A stretch of DNA of 64,000 bases, from NCBI RefSeq assembly GCF_009914755.1, contig NC_060947.1. One strand, written 5' to 3'. Made by a program: the position numbers and the translations under genes. Of the stretch, positions 908 through 42,024 are shown piece after piece. Origin of the DNA: the human T2T-CHM13v2.0 reference genome, Homo sapiens. How positions within the stretch are numbered: the stretch's first letter is position 1; the number at the start of each line of letters is the position of its first letter. The notes under the pieces are model-generated. The model saw nothing but the letters and a program-made list of their open reading frames with translations. It made no database searches and was not told the origin of the DNA.

Positions 908-1301
908 TAGGAAGTGCAGAAAACTCGTTTTAGAGCTTTAACTTTGGTTGGAAAAAAGGAAAGAGAGAAAAAAAAGTTGGGGGAGGAAAGATATCCAATC
1001 CTGTGGCTGAATAGGCGGTGAGGGGTTAAAGGAAGAATTTTTAAAAATCTTCAATTTCTTGAAATTTCAGTAAGTTTAAAAGCTAATGTGAAGAACCCAT
1101 TTCATCTCGTATTTAACCCTTGAATTTTCCTATATATTATTTTGTTTCTTACTCTCCTATTTCCACTTTAGAGCTCATGAGATGTCTCCAATGGACTAGT
1201 ATATGTTTTGAGCTCAATACAAATATAGTTACTAGATGAGGAAAGAACGGACAACTGTGTGTCACAGAAATGCTAGTAATTTCTGGATTTTTGCCTCTCA
1301 G

Positions 1302-1496
1302 GGAGGTAGAGGATGGCTGAAATCCTGGTGTGATGTGACTGGATCATGCATGATCTGAGGACCCTTGCCCTGGTGACTGGTGGACAGGTTCAGATTTTTC
1401 CTATAAACATATTAACATACCAAACTGTCCAGAAGCAGCTATTAAGCAAACACCATACTTTGCTTTCCTCATGCAATCTATCACAGAGCTCTTCAG
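1302..1496 (+). ncRNA. Putative non-coding exon A, copy 1
   Basis: Acceptor ttttgcctctcag|G at 1301/1302 and donor CAG|gtgagt at 1496/1497. No reading frame conserved across copies. Transcription is inferred, not seen. Confidence 0.5.
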
Positions 1497-1676
1497 GTGA
1501 GTTCACAAATATGTTTGTCATTCCAGTGTGGGGGAACTTGATCTGAGTCTGCTAAGAGGCATGATATTGAATGACTCCTGTGACCTTCTGATAATACCTA
1601 AGAATATAGAAAACCTTCTATCTCAAAAACTTTGAACTCAAGGCATATCAGAGAGATATTTGCTTCTTTCTTCTAG

Positions 1677-1924
1677 ATGTTTGTGTTCTTATTAGGAGAA
1701 ACAATGAGAAATGATTTTTCACAATGTCTCCTGAGCCCTGAGGCTCAGCCAGCCCTTACTGCTATGTCTCAACATTTAAAGGCCATTGAAGTCCCACTCC
1801 ATTCCATATACTTTGGACAACGTTTCTCATTTATGCCTGGGGACAGCTCTGTAACAATTGTATAATCAGTTCCATTTCACAGATGACTAAGCTCAGGCTC
1901 ACAGAGTCTAAGTCACCTCCCTAG
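1677..1924 (+). ncRNA. Putative non-coding exon B, copy 1 (MIR-derived donor)
   Basis: Acceptor tttgcttctttcttctag|A and donor TAG|gtaagt. A 180-nt intron separates it from exon A. Confidence 0.5.
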
Positions 1925-2769
1925 GTAAGTGGCAGGATTGGAATGAGGTTCCATCCCTCACCCTCCCTAGAGGATCCTGAGCACCTTTCTTTTAGAAGTT
2001 GGGCTTCCAGGACTTGAGAAATGGTCATATTCCACTCTCTTGCTATTGTGGCCCCAGAGGTGAGGTGCTCACTCTTCAACCTCTCAAGGTGATGAAGATG
2101 ATAGAGGAGATAAAATCCCTATCAGCAACTAGTTTTTAGTTATTCTAAAGTTTTCCTCATTTTGTCTTCATGCCTCCTGGTCCCTGAATGATCTAATTTC
2201 CCTGGGGGCTGCCATTCCAATGGGAGCATTCAAATTTTTCTTAAAAAAAAAAATGATCTGTAAAGTTTTTAAGTCATAATATTTTTGAAATTGAAAATCA
2301 ATTTCGATAGTAATAAAATTAAGAATTATCTTAAAACATTGGAGAAAGTATTTGCAAACTGTACCATATATAGGATTAGTATCCGTAATTTGTAACACAC
2401 ACTAATGACAAAGATATTGGTAATTCATTTCAACAGAAAATTTACATAAAATAAACATGAACAATAATCTTGTTAAATATGCCAAAACCAAAAGTACTAA
2501 TAAAATGCAAATACTTAAAAATCCTGAGAATTTATATAAAGTGGAAAAAAATTGCAACAGAAGATGAGGACTGTGATTGTACTTTTGGAGAAGACTATGT
2601 GAATCGGGTGAATGTATTCATGTGCACCTCACCTACAGGGACACATCTGAAGAGTATGCAACATCCTTAGGACAACAGATCCCTTGGGTCAGAGGTTGGA
2701 GTAGGGCTAGTGAGAGATTCAGGTGAATTACAATTTGTAAATGTGCCGTTGATTGCGATTCCTGTTGTC

Positions 2770-3060
2770 AGAAGGCGACTCTGACTGCTGTGTGGGGAAT
2801 GGACTGGAAAGGGACAAGATAGGGAGTGGGGATAACCATTAGGAAAATATTGCAGAAGTCCAGGGAAGAGGCACAGGTGGATGGGACCAGGGCTGCAGCT
2901 GTGTGCAGGTAGGGAGGAGTGAACCTGGACAGGGCGTGTTTGGAGGTACAGCAGGCAGAACTTGAAGTGGCTGTGCGTGTAGGGTGCATGGGGATAAGGC
3001 ACAGTCAAGGATGACCCCTCAGTTTTTTGTATAGCCATGTGGAGAAATGACACCGTTTTC
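2770..3060 (-). mobile_element. L2 fragment
   Basis: Purine-rich L2-like motifs (GGACCAGGGCTGCAGCTGTG..., GTCAAGGATGACCCC). Confidence 0.55.
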
Positions 3061-38452: not shown

Positions 38453-38506
38453 AAAGTTAACGTGATGAAGCTATCTTATCTCAGATTTAACACTAGAAAT
38501 TGCTCA

Positions 38507-38783
38507 TTTTTTTTTTTTGGCTGGAGTACAGTGTTGCGATCATGGCTCACTGCAGCTTCAACCTCCTGGGGCTCCTGTGATCCTCCCAGCTCAGCTTCCC
38601 GAGTAGCTGGGACCACAGGTGCATATCAACACACCCAGTTAATTTTTTTTGTTTGTTTATTTTTGTAGAGACGGGAGTCTCTTTAGGTTGCCCAGGCTGG
38701 TCTCGGACTCCTGGGCCCAAGTGATCCTCCCACCTCGACCTCTTAATGTGCTGGGATTATAGGTGTGAGCCACTTCACCCAGC
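38507..38783 (-). mobile_element. AluJ
   Basis: Diverged antisense Alu (GATCATGGCTCACTGCAGC...). Confidence 0.9.
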
Positions 38784-40598
38784 ACATTTTCTTTCTTACG
38801 CTCTTATTTTCACTTTAGAGCTCATGAGAGGCCTCTAATCGACTAGTATGAGTTTTGAGCTAAATATGTATTTAGTTATTAGTGAGAAAATGGACAATGG
38901 GCAATTGTGAGTCAAATAAATGCTAAATTTTTGCCTCTCCAAGAAGGCAGCAGGTGGCTGAAATCCTGGTGTGATATGGCTGAATAATGCATGATCTGAG
39001 GACCCTGTACTGGTTACTCCTGTACACGTTCACAATTTTTCTGTAAATGTATTAATATACTGAGCAGTCCAGGAGCAGCCATTAGGCAAACACCACTCCT
39101 TGCTTCCTTCATGTGACCTATCACTGAGCTCACCAGCTGAGGTCAATTACATTCTTCCCAACCTGGAGAACAGAATTTGGGTCTGCTCAGAGGCATGATG
39201 TGAAACATGTCTGGGATAAAAGCTTTGTTCTATTGACAGCAAACCTTTTTGTGTTAAGGGGTAGGGGAAGAGCAAGTGAAGGATGCAGATTAATTTCTAT
39301 TTAGGAATATACTTTTATATATTGTTTGAAATTTTGTCTTTTAAAAATATTCATACAAATTTAAACAAAAAATTACTTGTGAACAGATTGACAAATGTCA
39401 TGTGCACACATATTTATTAATTTGAAAAAGCATTCACTGTGTTAAATTTATGGTGAAATAAAGTTGATTAAACTTTGAAATAACTGAGTATGTATGTGTG
39501 TGTGTCCTCTGGCTCTATCATCACTCCAAATACACACTCACAAGTGAAGTTTCACCTTGAATTCAGAGATGGGCTTGACTCCAATTTCAGTTTTAGATAT
39601 CCTAGAAAATAGTTGATGCAGAGAGATTGCTACAATCAGGTGAATAATTGCAGAAAACTGCCTGATACCTTGGAGTTAACCTCCAGCCTCCATTCCTCTC
39701 GCCCCCTTGCTGAGCCCCCTGTTCTGAAACTCTCAGAGCTTCCATCCTGTCTCTGGCCGCTAGGTGACATCCAACTCTATTCTGCTTTTACTGCTTTAAT
39801 AAAAATGAGTATATTTTGCAAAGAATAAAAAATATCTTGTAATAGTTTTTATGCTGTGATGCCAATTCTGTTTGGAAAATTCACATGTGCATTAAAACAG
39901 CTCAATTTGCTGTTGACCTTAAATCTACATCTCACTGATTTAACTCTTATCTCCTCAGTGTAGGTTGAGGTATCCACACTATAGAGGGGTCCCTCCTAGA
40001 CGACAGAGTGATCACACTTCATTACCCAACCCCTGTACTGGCTTCCCAGATCTCCTCCCACTCCCTCACAGGCTCCAGGACACTGTGGACACAGCTGCCC
40101 AGATCTGTCAATGGCACCTGATCCTCTCTCAGACAACTCTTGCCTGTCCTATACTGTGCTTTGCTTGCTGGGGACTGCTAAAGCACACTAAAGCTGCCTG
40201 GTGTTTCATGTGGGTGCCCCAGTTTGTTTTTACTGTCTTACTCTTACTAGTTTTTTTTATTTTTGGAAGAATTAAAATCATTCTGTACATAGGCTCATAA
40301 GTCTGAAGGGAGGTATTTTTGTTTTGCTCCTTGCATGCATTTCTTTGTAGAGAATTTGACAATGGTGGTATATTGGTGCCCCTCATGACAGAAGTCCAAA
40401 CTTCAGTTTGAACGTCACTGAGCAGGAAGGTGGGAGGGACGGGCTTTAACCCAAGCCCACCAGACCGATTTCTGAAAATCTGAGTGACAAAAAAGGGTAT
40501 TCCCAGTGTATAGGGATATTAATGGCTTCCAAACAGAAAGTACAACTTCTTCCTATGTTGAAGGGAAAATTCTATGTAACAAGATTAAAAGATCACCT

Positions 40599-40895
40599 GG
40601 CCAGGTGCAGTGGCTCACGCCTGTAATCCCAGCACTTTGGGAGGCCAAGGCAGGCGGATCACGAGGTCAGGAGATCGAGACCATCCTGGCTAACATGGTG
40701 AAACCCCATCTCTACTAAAAATACAAAAAGTTAGCCGGGCATGGTGGCGGGCGCCTGTAGTCCCAGCTACTCGGGAGGCTGAGGCAGGAGAATGGCGTGA
40801 ACCCAGGAGGCGGAGCTTGCAGTGAGCCCAGATCGTGCCACAGCACTCCAGCCTGGGCGACAGAGCGAGACTCTGTCTCAAAAAAAAAAAAAAAA
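40599..40895 (+). mobile_element. AluY
   Basis: GAGATCGAGACCATCCTGGCTAAC and GAATGGCGTGAACCC; TSD ending ATCACCT. Confidence 0.97.
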
Positions 40896-42024
40896 TCACC
40901 TTTATTTTTATGCTTTAAGGCCTATAGATAAATAGCTATAGATCTATACAAGCCAAAATGCATCCAGCCCACTTATGAGCTTTATAACCTGCCTTTGCCC
41001 TAATTACGACCATCTTTCCGTGGAACTAGTTTTCTATCATAACACTTTAAATTACAGCAAAATTTTAGTTTTCTTTTTATATCAACTAGATGCTTCATCT
41101 TATTGAAGTATATTTGGGGCATCCATATCTTAGTAATGAAAACTTAGTTTATCTCTATTTCAAATTTTGGTGTACTTAACCTTGCCCATATATATGAAAA
41201 TAACTTTGTAAGCATTTCTCTATAAGAGGTTCTTGAAATTATTCTTTCAAATCTATGTAAAGCTATAAAATTTTATGTTAACACAATATATTCAGAACAT
41301 ATTACTAATGTATATTCCTGACAATACTGTGTGGAAATGTCTGTTTACCACTTATTAGAAATAATGTGAATCATTGCAAATCTGATAGGCAACAAACCAC
41401 CTCTTATTGTCTTCATTAAAACTTTTTGTTACTTTCTAGAATTTAATTCTGTGGATGTGACATAATCACATAGTATAAATAATAGGAAATATCAGAATAA
41501 CATGGTTAAAATGATAAATTTTATTATGTGAATTTTATCTCACATTCCTCACCAGTGCATATAGCTATGTGAACTCTGCCCTGAGCTGCACCTTTTAGCA
41601 GTGTACAGACTCTGAAAAGCCACCCACACAGTGGTTTTTAATATATTCACAATGTTGTATAATCATCACCACTATCTTTTACCCATTAAGTAGTCACTCC
41701 CCATTCTCCCCTCCCTCAACTCTTAGTAACCATTAATCTGCTTTCCATCTCTATGGATTTGCTTATTTTGGAAATTTCATGTAAATGCAGTCATATTTTA
41801 TGTGGCCTGGGTGATTAAACTTGGATTCTTAACCTATACTAAATATGGTGATAACCTTCTTCCATCCTTCTCTTTTCCCCAGGGGATGGTGTTCTCACTG
41901 GTATTCAGGCAGTGTAAGCAGTTAGTCACAAAAGCCTTAGGGTCAGGCAGATCTATGTTCAAATCCTGACTGTCGTGGACAATTTACTTCGTCATCTCTG
42001 CTGTTGCCATCTCAAAATATTTTA

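What the first reader, a model, noticed from the sequence alone, without database searches (positions are those of the whole stretch)
908..41345. Hidden ancient tandem array of a ~6-7 kb multi-exon unit (5 copies plus 1 partial) hosting RAB40AL
Seen: the same ordered series of blocks recurs on the + strand, with the 'exon A' block starting at 1302, 7717, 16954, 24123 and 38944. The spacings are 6.4, 9.2, 7.2 and 14.8 kb. The two long ones fall to ~7.5 and ~6.3 kb after removing the 1.7-kb retrocopy and the 8.5-kb L1. Copies look roughly 75-85% identical (eye estimate) and have no shared ORF, yet they repeatedly show acceptor/donor pairs. Inference: this is a decayed macrosatellite-like array of non-coding exon cassettes, structurally reminiscent of repeated-exon lncRNA loci such as SNHG14 or FIRRE. 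It could supply the exons of the + strand lncRNA I recall overlapping this region (LINC00630), giving a transcript built from paralogous modules. A standard repeat library may not name the unit, and it looks too diverged for segmental-duplication tracks.
Basis: partly seen in the sequence, partly recalled or inferred. Interest (0 to 1): 0.8.

Follow-up and report, generated by a model that had tools for sequence, protein, structure and literature searches.

The report
Old Xq22-only repeated non-coding DNA block
A roughly 3.5-kb stretch of non-coding DNA carrying exon-like pieces was copied about twenty times long ago within one small region of the human X chromosome, and the RAB40AL gene sits inside one of the copies.

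Summary
They are 70-81% identical.

Whole-genome searches with three different blocks found the family only on chrX 100.2-102.0 Mb, at 20 or more loci. A second cluster surrounds RAB40A.

The conserved unit is about 3.5 kb, not 6-7 kb. The spacers differ between copies, and some copies are inverted or scattered. It is therefore an ancient mosaic of local duplications, not a regular macrosatellite.

I found no protein family, no Rfam RNA, no terminal repeats and no BGW motif. The unit consensus carries two perfect splice donors on the + strand only, each paired with an acceptor-like site, so the exon-cassette reading of the ancestor is plausible. Today the donors decay at about the neutral rate. 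The one RefSeq LINC00630 transcript shown touches only copy 5, by read-through in its last exon.

A 630-nt core is clearly less diverged than the rest (K2P 0.20 against 0.29-0.39). Selection and gene conversion could not be told apart.

Side result: the RAB40B-derived retrocopy is 1.7 kb, with a poly(A) remnant and a target-site duplication. RAB40AL is nevertheless a DNA-level duplicate of the RAB40A locus, not a retrocopy of RAB40A.

The parts
990..2760 (+). Unit copy U1 (blocks A and B only; X and C missing)
   Evidence: It is 75-78% identical to other copies over about 1.1 kb.
1302..1496 (+). Exon-A-like cassette of U1 (195 nt), with acceptor ...CTCTCAG|G and donor CAG|GTGAGT
2757..6300 (+). 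Spacer S1. It is not part of the unit, but together with U2 it is collinear with chrX 101335396-101345493 (a higher-order duplication).
   Evidence: 75-88% identity in four collinear pieces.
6300..10260 (+). Unit copy U2, full length (X 6315-6886, A 6996-8957, B 8958-9441, C 9441-10196), with a private 421-nt insert at 7004-7424
7716..7909 (+). Exon-A-like cassette of U2
   Evidence: The donor CAGGTGAGT starts at 7907.
8035..8684 (+). Slow-diverging core of U2. It includes exon-B-like cassette 8104-8323 and the 46-nt sub-core 8570-8615 with two CAGGTG motifs.
10261..10851 (+). Partial copy U2' (starts inside the A-B 'intron'; holds exon-B-like cassette 10443-10675). The same C-to-A' junction recurs at the RAB40A locus and at chrX 101983413-101983557.
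10852..12212 (+). Left flank of the retrocopy. It belongs to a second Xq22 duplicon ('F') and is 88-97% identical to the RAB40A locus.
12213..13918 (+). Processed retrocopy of the chr17 parent gene (RAB40B by position), which is the RAB40AL gene (RefSeq exon 12231-13259, CDS 12278-13114). A poly(A) remnant follows to about 13945, and there is a target-site duplication of about 10 nt.
   Evidence: six chr17 exon matches abut without introns. add the empty-site paralogue on chrX at 100566460-100566860.
13919..16132 (+). Right flank of the retrocopy (duplicon F), 83-98% identical to the RAB40A locus. There is no poly(A) at its end.
16133..17400 (+). Unit copy U3 (X and the first third of A, including exon-A-like cassette 16954-17147; its donor is degraded to GTGATT)
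23600..27347 (+). Unit copy U4 (X tail, A 23795-25361, B, C and tail). Exon-A-like cassette at 24122-24313, core at 24441-25101, and a private Alu-like insert at 25567-25804.
27400..33100 (-). Degenerate L1 with several Alu insertions, separating U4 from U5 (boundaries approximate)
   Evidence: Transposase_22 and Tnp_22_dsRBD at 32415-32922 and RVT_1 at 30080-30193. AT skew of about -0.3; dispersed matches on both strands.
36563..39480 (+). Terminal exon of LINC00630 (hub annotation). It reads through blocks X and A of U5 and uses an AATAAA at 39458.
   Evidence: Hub table. The poly(A) signal is present in only 2 of the 9 copies aligned there.
37450..41319 (+). Unit copy U5 (X 37500-38184, private Alu-like insert 38513-38784, first third of A with exon-A-like cassette 38943-39136 and a mutated donor CAGCTGAGG, then B, C and tail). 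The core is deleted.

Best explanation
The finding is an ancient, Xq22-restricted low-copy duplicon family. One stretch of about 3.5 kb of non-coding DNA (blocks X-A-B-C) was copied repeatedly by DNA-level local duplication. The copies arose in tandem, in multi-unit blocks and in inverted orientation. They arose in a short burst long ago; my inference is around the eutherian radiation, when the BEX/TCEAL/ARMCX/GPRASP region of Xq22 expanded.

The ancestral stretch most likely lay in a transcribed non-coding gene segment of the 5'-UTR or lncRNA type. Its consensus carries two or three consecutive exon-like cassettes in one orientation: A of 195 nt, B of 231 nt, and possibly a third. All have stops in every frame.

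Since the burst most of each copy has decayed at about the neutral rate, through truncations, private Alu insertions and loss of donors. Transcripts now use the copies opportunistically. An example is the read-through last exon of LINC00630 in copy 5.

Later, a retrocopy of the chr17 RAB40 gene inserted into a neighbouring duplicon beside a partial unit. That whole 5.3-kb segment now exists at two unit-flanked loci, RAB40A and RAB40AL, through DNA-level duplication or conversion, and the coding part was further homogenised.

Shown: the copies, their restriction to Xq22, the lack of coding or RNA-family signal, the star-like tree, the donor and acceptor motifs, and the retrocopy anatomy. Inferred: the age, the exon status of the ancestor, and neutrality today.
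For: Collinearity and copy count:
- Collinear blocks are 70-88% identical, with E values down to 0.
- 18 copies were aligned, with 3,545 columns shared by 6 or more copies. A further copy lies at chrX 101910106-101911688.

Genome-wide restriction to Xq22:
- Block A: 23 of 24 matches lie on chrX 100.21-101.99 Mb; the other is a 55-bp match on chr12.
- Blocks B+C: 21 of 43 matches lie on chrX, in the same Xq22 region. The other 22 are 39-92-bp matches to a GT-rich microsatellite-like stretch.
- Block X: 12 of 12 matches.
- A 46-mer of the core with up to 3 mismatches: 8 of 8 matches in unit copies, and 0 for the reversed control.

No sign of a mobile element or a coding gene:
- No terminal direct or inverted repeats in U2.
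- 0 of 98 unit reading frames gave a Pfam hit better than E = 0.06.
- Pfam BEX and Arm_2 do not match inside the window.

Duplication history:
- The tree of 13 copies is star-like, with terminal branches of 0.05-0.16 and internal branches of 0.023 or less.
- 7 of 8 Alu-like insertions are private to one copy.

Exon-like cassettes:
- The consensus has 2 CAGGTRAGT on the + strand and 0 on the - strand. Shuffles average 0.022, and 0 of 2000 reach 2.
- All 3 CAGGTRAGT in the 64-kb window are exon-A donors.
- The donor GT is kept in 11 of 14 copies (A) and 10 of 15 (B). That is about what 12% per-site decay predicts.
- Exons A and B have stops in all frames.

RAB40 locus:
- Window 9384-16132 is collinear with chrX 101951003-101943909 on the minus strand. 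Identity is 76% in C, 83% in A', 88-97% in the flanks and 98-99% in the CDS, with no poly(A) at the end.
- Retrocopy boundaries, poly(A) remnant, target-site duplication and an empty-site paralogue were all found.
Against: A core of about 630 nt (consensus positions 1270-1940; for example window 8035-8684) is clearly less diverged than the rest of the unit.
- K2P is 0.19-0.21 against 0.29-0.39 among the same five full copies.
- All 25 best 40-nt windows fall inside it.
- Pure neutral decay after one burst does not predict this. It needs either selection or gene conversion, and my test could not separate them.
- In that test, 2 of 45 pairs passed Bonferroni correction and 11 of 45 had P < 0.05. 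The test is confounded by rate heterogeneity.

Exon usage could not be checked beyond the one transcript in the hub table.

No other mammalian genome was available, so the age rests on divergence and on substitution rates that I recalled.

No repeat library (Dfam) was available. Old transposon fragments inside the unit cannot be named by a tool. Part of exon B looks MIR-derived to me, from memory only. That also weakens the donor statistic for exon B, because that donor may be inherited from the repeat.
Confidence: 0.7

Rival explanations
1. The copies, or at least their 630-nt core, are kept by selection as a working repeated module. The module would be either repeated exons of + strand non-coding transcripts (LINC00630, 5' exons of RAB40A) or a family of Xq22-specific regulatory elements. 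The most conserved 46-nt piece holds two CAGGTG motifs.
For: - The core K2P is 0.19-0.21 against 0.29-0.39 elsewhere.
- The 46-mer is kept with 3 or fewer mismatches in 8 copies.
- All six window copies share the orientation of LINC00630 and RAB40AL, and the copies inside the RAB40A span share its minus orientation.
- Acceptor and donor motifs are intact in many copies.
- The partial copy kept next to both RAB40 genes starts just before exon B and contains the core.
Against: - The donor GT is lost at about the neutral rate.
- Copies U1, U3 and U5 have lost all or part of the core.
- RNAalifold on 8 of the 12 copies that hold 400 nt or more of the core gives a positive (unfavourable) covariation term of +3.95. 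Only 4 of 127 pairs have a compensatory change.
- There are no Rfam matches.
- The RefSeq transcript shown skips copies 1-4.
- The core has a higher G+C content than its flanks (0.44-0.55 against 0.27-0.42). GC-biased gene conversion would produce this, and it has been described for this region (PMC1274310, abstract and sections 5, 7 and 17 read).
Confidence: 0.17
2. The units are decayed copies of a protein-coding gene, that is, a pseudogene array, for example of a BEX/TCEAL/ARMCX/GPRASP-type or other Xq22 gene.
For: - The region is known for repeated gene duplication (PMC1274310, PMC7586669).
- The exon-like cassettes suggest a genic origin.
Against: - 0 of 98 frames gave a Pfam match.
- Genome-wide BEX and Arm_2 scans find every known family member on chrX but nothing in the window.
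- The consensus of exons A and B has stops in all three frames.
- The element shared by the BEX1, BEX3 and TCEAL7 promoters, taken as the BGW element, gave only chance-level matches inside unit copies (all E of 1.5 or more).
Confidence: 0.05
3. The blocks are copies of a dispersed transposon or endogenous retrovirus family that happens to be dense here.
For: - The unit contains old repeat material. The core hit a 55-bp stretch on chr12, and part of it resembles MIR by my recollection.
Against: - Three block queries and one 46-mer scan find the family only in Xq22.
- The blocks always occur in the same order and register.
- No transposon proteins were found.
- There are no terminal repeats.
Confidence: 0.03

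Closest known systems
Eutherian Xq22 'BGW' cluster duplications (BEX/TCEAL, ARMCX/GPRASP; Winter & Ponting 2005, PMC1274310; Navas-Perez et al. 2020, PMC7586669)
   Same: Both are confined to the same 2-Mb Xq22 segment. Both involve homologous non-coding sequence shared by many paralogous loci. Both show evidence or suspicion of gene conversion with raised G+C. Both appear to be old.
   Different: The units carry no BGW element and no BEX or Arm_2 coding exon. Table 1 of PMC1274310 marks neither RAB40A nor 'Rab40A-like' as BGW-positive. I found no description of this unit in that paper (sections 5, 7 and 17 read) or in my searches.
Segmental duplications / low-copy repeats
   Same: Both arise by DNA-level copying of kilobase blocks with mosaic, nested and inverted arrangements.
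   Different: The unit copies are 70-88% identical, below the customary 90% threshold. Only the 5.3-kb RAB40 segment reaches it (90.9%).
X-linked macrosatellites and repeated-exon lncRNA loci (DXZ4, FIRRE, SNHG14), named from my own knowledge
   Same: Both have repeated kilobase units overlapping a long non-coding transcript, with exon-like cassettes in one orientation.
   Different: Here there is no uniform period and no high inter-copy identity. No snoRNA or other Rfam RNA lies between the cassettes. The annotated transcript does not splice the cassettes in register.
Retrogene that recruits upstream exons (RAB40A/RAB40AL, primate-specific; PMC3350147, PMC10509765)
   Same: The RAB40 copy is a classical processed retrocopy with a poly(A) remnant and a target-site duplication.
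   Different: The review PMC10509765 (passages read) relays the proposal that RAB40AL arose by retrotranscription of RAB40A. Here the two loci share 1.4 kb upstream and 2.2 kb downstream of the retrocopy and the same insertion site, which points to DNA-level duplication or conversion.

Membership tests
Macrosatellite / regular tandem array | Head-to-tail copies with one constant period | tested here: not met
   The starts of block A are 6.4, 9.2, 7.2 and 14.8 kb apart. The spacers are not homologous to each other. Tandem Repeats Finder reports no long-period array (longest period scanned 500).
Macrosatellite / regular tandem array | High identity between neighbouring copies (concerted evolution) | tested here: not met
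   Window copies are 70-81% identical. The median K2P of the core is 0.22.
Segmental duplication (1 kb or more, 90% identity or more) | Identity of at least 90% over at least 1 kb | tested here: not met
   The unit copies are 66-88% identical. The exception is the RAB40 segment 10852-16132, at 90.9% over 5,359 aligned columns.
Dispersed transposon / ERV family | Copies on many chromosomes, independent of flanking context | tested here: not met
   Searches find the family on chrX 100.2-102.0 Mb only. The sole exceptions are a 55-bp match and microsatellite matches.
Dispersed transposon / ERV family | Terminal repeats (LTR or TIR) or transposon proteins | tested here: not met
   One search finds no terminal repeats in U2. 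One search gives 0 of 98 frames with a Pfam hit.
Dispersed transposon / ERV family | Match to a curated repeat library (Dfam/Repbase) | not testable with these tools
   No repeat library was on hand.
BGW element (Xq22 5'-UTR/promoter motif) | Presence of the motif of about 57-60 nt shared by BEX/TCEAL/ARMCX promoters | tested here: not met
   I took the element shared by the BEX3, BEX1 and TCEAL7 upstream regions as a proxy. It gave only chance-level matches inside unit copies (all E of 1.5 or more). The best matches outside them had E = 8e-4 and 0.01, at chrX 101473663 and 101466185, beyond the window. The published motif itself was not available as text.
Repeated-exon snoRNA host lncRNA (SNHG14-like) | snoRNA or other small RNA between the repeated exons | tested here: not met
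   Rfam gives 0 matches at gathering score in the whole window, and no tRNA was found.
Repeated-exon lncRNA (any) | Cassettes spliced in register in several copies | not testable with these tools
   Only one of the seven LINC00630 isoforms is given. It uses no cassette of copies 1-4.
Processed retrocopy | Intronless match to the parent's exons, poly(A) tail, target-site duplication, empty site | tested here: met
   six chr17 exon matches abut at window 12213-13918. Searches show the A-rich remnant, a duplicated target of about 10 nt, and an uninterrupted paralogous site at chrX 100566460-100566860.
RAB40AL as a retrocopy of RAB40A mRNA | Homology between the two loci limited to the mature transcript and ending in poly(A) | tested here: not met
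   Homology runs from 9384 to 16132. It includes 1.4 kb upstream of the retrocopy and unit blocks C and A', and there is no poly(A) at the end.

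The most novel reading that the evidence does not exclude
The 630-nt core would be a selectively maintained, Xq22-specific functional module that was co-amplified with the eutherian BGW gene cluster. It comprises the exon-B-like cassette plus a sub-core of about 100 nt with two CAGGTG motifs. 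It is kept with 3 or fewer mismatches per 46 nt in 8 paralogues while the rest of the unit has drifted to about 70% identity. The module would be either a repeated lncRNA/5'-UTR exon block, used by LINC00630 and RAB40A-type transcripts, or a family of about fifteen paralogous regulatory elements.
Probability: 0.15. Interest if true: 0.6.

Novelty: new member of a known kind. Interest (0 to 1): 0.35.

Why it matters
- It shows that the eutherian-specific Xq22 region was built from intergenic and non-coding duplicons as well as from duplicated genes. One of these duplicons has about twenty copies and carries exon-like cassettes.
- It gives a concrete anatomy for the origin of the primate-specific genes RAB40A and RAB40AL: one retroposition into a duplicon, followed by DNA-level copying. 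That differs from what a recent review relays.
- It flags a 630-nt core whose slow divergence across paralogues deserves a selection-versus-conversion test.
- Apart from that core, it is ordinary old duplicated DNA.

Tried and rejected
- **Coding origin.** The Pfam scan of 98 stop-to-stop frames of 50 aa or more from the five window copies gave only 5 marginal hits (E 0.063-0.095, all under the cut-offs). A 212-aa open frame at 25876-26511 translates to low-complexity text that does not look protein-like.
- **BEX and Arm_2 genome scans.** Neither gave a hit in the window.
- **BGW motif.** It was not found in the units.
- **RNA family and RNA structure.** Rfam gave 0 matches. RNAalifold gave no covariation support. 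For that run I passed 8 of the 12 eligible copies and left out Ua, Ug, Ui and Uj because of large private insertions.
- **Conserved poly(A) site.** The AATAAA used by LINC00630 in copy 5 is present in only 2 of the 9 copies aligned there.
- **MIR origin of the core by local BLAST.** Only 1 weak hit fell outside unit-homologous sequence (E = 0.007); three stronger outside hits were further fragments of the unit. The result is inconclusive, because old MIR copies are too diverged from each other.
- **L1 check.** The second pass used frames of 35 aa or more on the minus strand (34 of 44 frames; 10 in Alu-masked stretches were left out) and found L1 ORF1 and RT pieces.
- **Gene-conversion test of my own.** The result was ambiguous.
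- **Paper PMC379199.** It is not held.
- **Upstream regions of about twenty BGW genes.** I could not fetch them all, so only four were compared.

Full report

Yes. A self-comparison of the window shows collinear + strand matches far beyond chance. One example is 7502-8868 against 23906-25293: 76.5% over 1,406 nt, E = 0.

Block A occurs at 1043-2118, 7462-8868, 16869-17374, 23900-25293 and 38786-39207, with a partial copy at 10271-10851. The other blocks recur in the same order:
- An upstream block X at 6382-6865, 16133-16809, 23614-23711 and 37474-38188.
- Downstream blocks B at 2370-2746 and 8958-9320, and C at 9246-10148, 25922-26926 and 39236-40595.
- A tail at 27209-27347 and 41177-41319.

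**2. How far does the family reach?**

The window is chrX:101370001-101434000 of the held assembly. I ran four whole-genome searches.
- Block A: 23 of 24 matches lie on chrX between 100,206,599 and 101,986,499. The remaining one is a 55-bp match on chr12.
- Blocks B+C: 21 of 43 matches lie on chrX, in the same Xq22 region. The other 22 are 39-92-bp matches to a GT-rich microsatellite-like stretch.
- Block X: 12 of 12 matches lie there.
- A 46-mer from the best-conserved part, allowing 3 mismatches: 8 genome matches, all in unit copies, and none for the reversed control.

The search tool scores only its best candidates, so weak dispersed relatives cannot be fully excluded. Even so, a 55-bp match made the list, which argues that nothing better exists elsewhere.

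After fetching 254 kb around the hits, I mapped 18 copies, and later one more at 101910106-101911688. They fall into these groups:
- A cluster from 101.34 to 101.46 Mb, which holds the window.
- A second cluster at 101.91-101.99 Mb around RAB40A, mostly on the minus strand.
- Singles at 101.59, 101.62 and 100.21 Mb.

**3. What is the unit?**

The 18-copy alignment has 3,545 columns occupied by 6 or more copies. The ancestral unit was therefore about 3.5 kb, not 6-7 kb.

The spacers in the window are not homologous to each other. There is, however, higher-order structure:
- Spacer 2757-6300 plus copy U2 is collinear with chrX 101335396-101345493.
- The spacer after U3 matches the one after that upstream copy.
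- A 'C followed by a 5'-truncated A' junction recurs at three loci.

The family is thus a nested mosaic of duplications, some of them inverted, and not a regular tandem array.

The unit gave no signal for any of the following:
- Terminal direct or inverted repeats.
- A Pfam match in 98 reading frames.
- BEX or Arm_2 coding remnants.
- An Rfam family or a tRNA.
- The element shared by the BEX1, BEX3 and TCEAL7 promoters, which I used as a stand-in for the published BGW motif.

**4. Exon-like cassettes.**

The majority consensus, built only inside scripts, carries the perfect donor 9-mer CAGGTRAGT twice on the + strand and never on the - strand. The shuffle expectation is 0.022, and 0 of 2000 shuffles reach 2. 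Each donor is preceded, 195 and 231 nt upstream, by a pyrimidine tract and an AG.

In the whole 64-kb window there are only three CAGGTRAGT, and all three are exon-A donors, of U1, U2 and U4. A third cassette with alternative donors may follow.

Both cassettes have stops in all frames in the consensus.

Two cautions apply.
- The 3' half of cassette B and its donor look to me like part of a MIR element. This is my recollection only. A local BLAST test was inconclusive, so that donor may be inherited from the repeat.
- The donors are not kept better than the surrounding sequence. GT survives in 11 of 14 copies (A) and 10 of 15 (B), close to what about 12% per-site decay predicts.

The hub's LINC00630 transcript has no exon in copies 1-4. 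Its exon 33605-33658 lies outside any unit. Its last exon, 36563-39480, runs straight through blocks X and A of copy 5, where the donor is mutated, to an AATAAA at 39458. Only 2 of the 9 copies aligned there share that signal. The other six isoforms were not visible to me.

**5. History.**

A tree of the core from 13 copies (the five with under 55% coverage were left out) is star-like. Terminal branches are 0.05-0.16 and internal branches 0.023 or less. This indicates one burst.

Of 8 Alu-like insertions inside units, 7 are private to one copy. One 150-nt piece is shared by the adjacent, most similar pair Ui/Uj. Most duplications therefore predate the Alu insertions seen, and one tandem step is later.

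Outside the core the median K2P is 0.29-0.39, or about 0.15-0.2 per lineage. Using rates that I recalled for the human lineage since the rodent split, this puts the burst near the eutherian radiation. That fits the published timing of the Xq22 expansion (PMC7586669, passages read; PMC1274310, sections 5, 7 and 17 read). This age is inference, because no other mammal could be searched.

**6. The unexplained part: a slow core.**

Consensus positions 1270-1940 (window 8035-8684 in U2 and 24441-25101 in U4) are much less diverged than the rest.
- K2P is 0.19-0.21 against 0.29-0.39 among the same five full-length copies.
- All 25 most conserved 40-nt windows fall inside it, at 0.84-0.90 against a unit median of 0.73.
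- The peak is a stretch of about 100 nt containing two CAGGTG motifs.

Gene conversion is known in this region, including between RAB40A and RAB40AL (PMC2724270, passages read) and among BGW 5' UTRs (PMC1274310). The core is also richer in G+C than its flanks, which fits biased conversion.

My permutation test found long concordant runs in 2 of 45 pairs after correction and in 11 of 45 at P < 0.05, all within consensus positions 1242-1910, in or just before the core. The test is confounded by rate heterogeneity.

A conserved RNA fold is not supported. The covariation term is +3.95 and 4 of 127 pairs are compensatory, using 8 of 12 copies. Selection on a DNA element or exon remains open.

**7. 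RAB40AL.**

Exons of a chr17 gene at 83.53-83.57 Mb (RAB40B by position, and by the literature on the family) map without introns onto window 12213-13918. This confirms the 1.7-kb retrocopy.

It ends in an A-rich remnant and is bracketed by a duplicated target of about 10 nt. An uninterrupted paralogue of the insertion site survives at chrX 100566460-100566860, about 5 kb upstream of the TCEAL2 coding exon.

The flanks, 10852-12212 and 13919-16132, belong to a second Xq22 duplicon.

The two RAB40 loci are collinear from 9384 to 16132. Identity is 76% in block C, 83% in the partial A, 88-97% in the retrocopy flanks, 98-99% in the coding part and 83-87% near the end, and no poly(A) follows.

One retroposition was therefore followed by DNA-level duplication or conversion of at least 5.3 kb between two already paralogous, unit-flanked sites, with continued homogenisation of the gene. 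This disagrees with the proposal relayed in PMC10509765 (passages read) that RAB40AL is a retrotranscribed copy of RAB40A. It also answers the question left open in PMC3350147 (passages read).

**8. Verdict.**

The feature is real and, as far as four literature searches show, not described as such. PMC3350147 only remarks that RAB40A 'is flanked by repetitive sequences'.

In kind it is ordinary: an old low-copy duplicon family in a region famous for duplication. It has a plausible genic, non-coding ancestry and one feature worth following up, the slow core.

Noticed in passing
window 44957-45235: A near-perfect 280-nt palindrome with arms of about 130 nt and a 17-nt loop. Folded as DNA it gives -143 kcal/mol, z = -30.6 against shuffles. 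It sits between two stretches that match, in inverted orientation, the 5' part of the L1 at 31.7-33.0 kb.
   Followed up: partly
window 34314-35535: A G+C-rich region (0.53-0.56) that is CpG-poor (observed/expected 0.09). It has a diverged internal repeat with a period of about 282 nt at 66-76% identity. It lies just downstream of LINC00630 exon 33605-33658 and is not part of any unit.
   Followed up: partly
window 36583-36645: An exact tandem duplication of a 31-nt unit lies 20 nt inside the start of the terminal LINC00630 exon.
   Followed up: no
outside the window: chrX 101466131-101466185 and 101473663-101473701 (window places about 96,150 and 103,680): The TCEAL7 promoter element, taken as a proxy for the BGW motif, gives weak matches here (E = 0.01 and 8e-4). 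They lie inside an inverted pair of 1.6-kb duplicates that are 88.7% identical. They may be orphan BGW relics.
   Followed up: no
L048 (chrX 100566401-100566900), about 5 kb upstream of the TCEAL2 coding exon: An uninterrupted paralogue of the site into which the RAB40 retrocopy inserted. It shows that the retrocopy's flanks belong to a second ancient Xq22 duplicon, with further pieces at chrX 101625581, 101873544 and 101915223.
   Followed up: partly
window 11901-12800: This is the only CpG-island-like stretch of the whole window (G+C 0.50-0.60, CpG observed/expected 0.61-0.72). It is the 5' end of the RAB40AL retrocopy itself, so its promoter-like composition came in with the retrocopy.
   Followed up: no
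window 12160-12215: Directly upstream of the retrocopy's first base there is a long pyrimidine tract ending in AG. It could serve as the acceptor of the coding exon at the paralogous RAB40A locus. RefSeq gives RAB40AL as a single exon starting at 12231.
   Followed up: no
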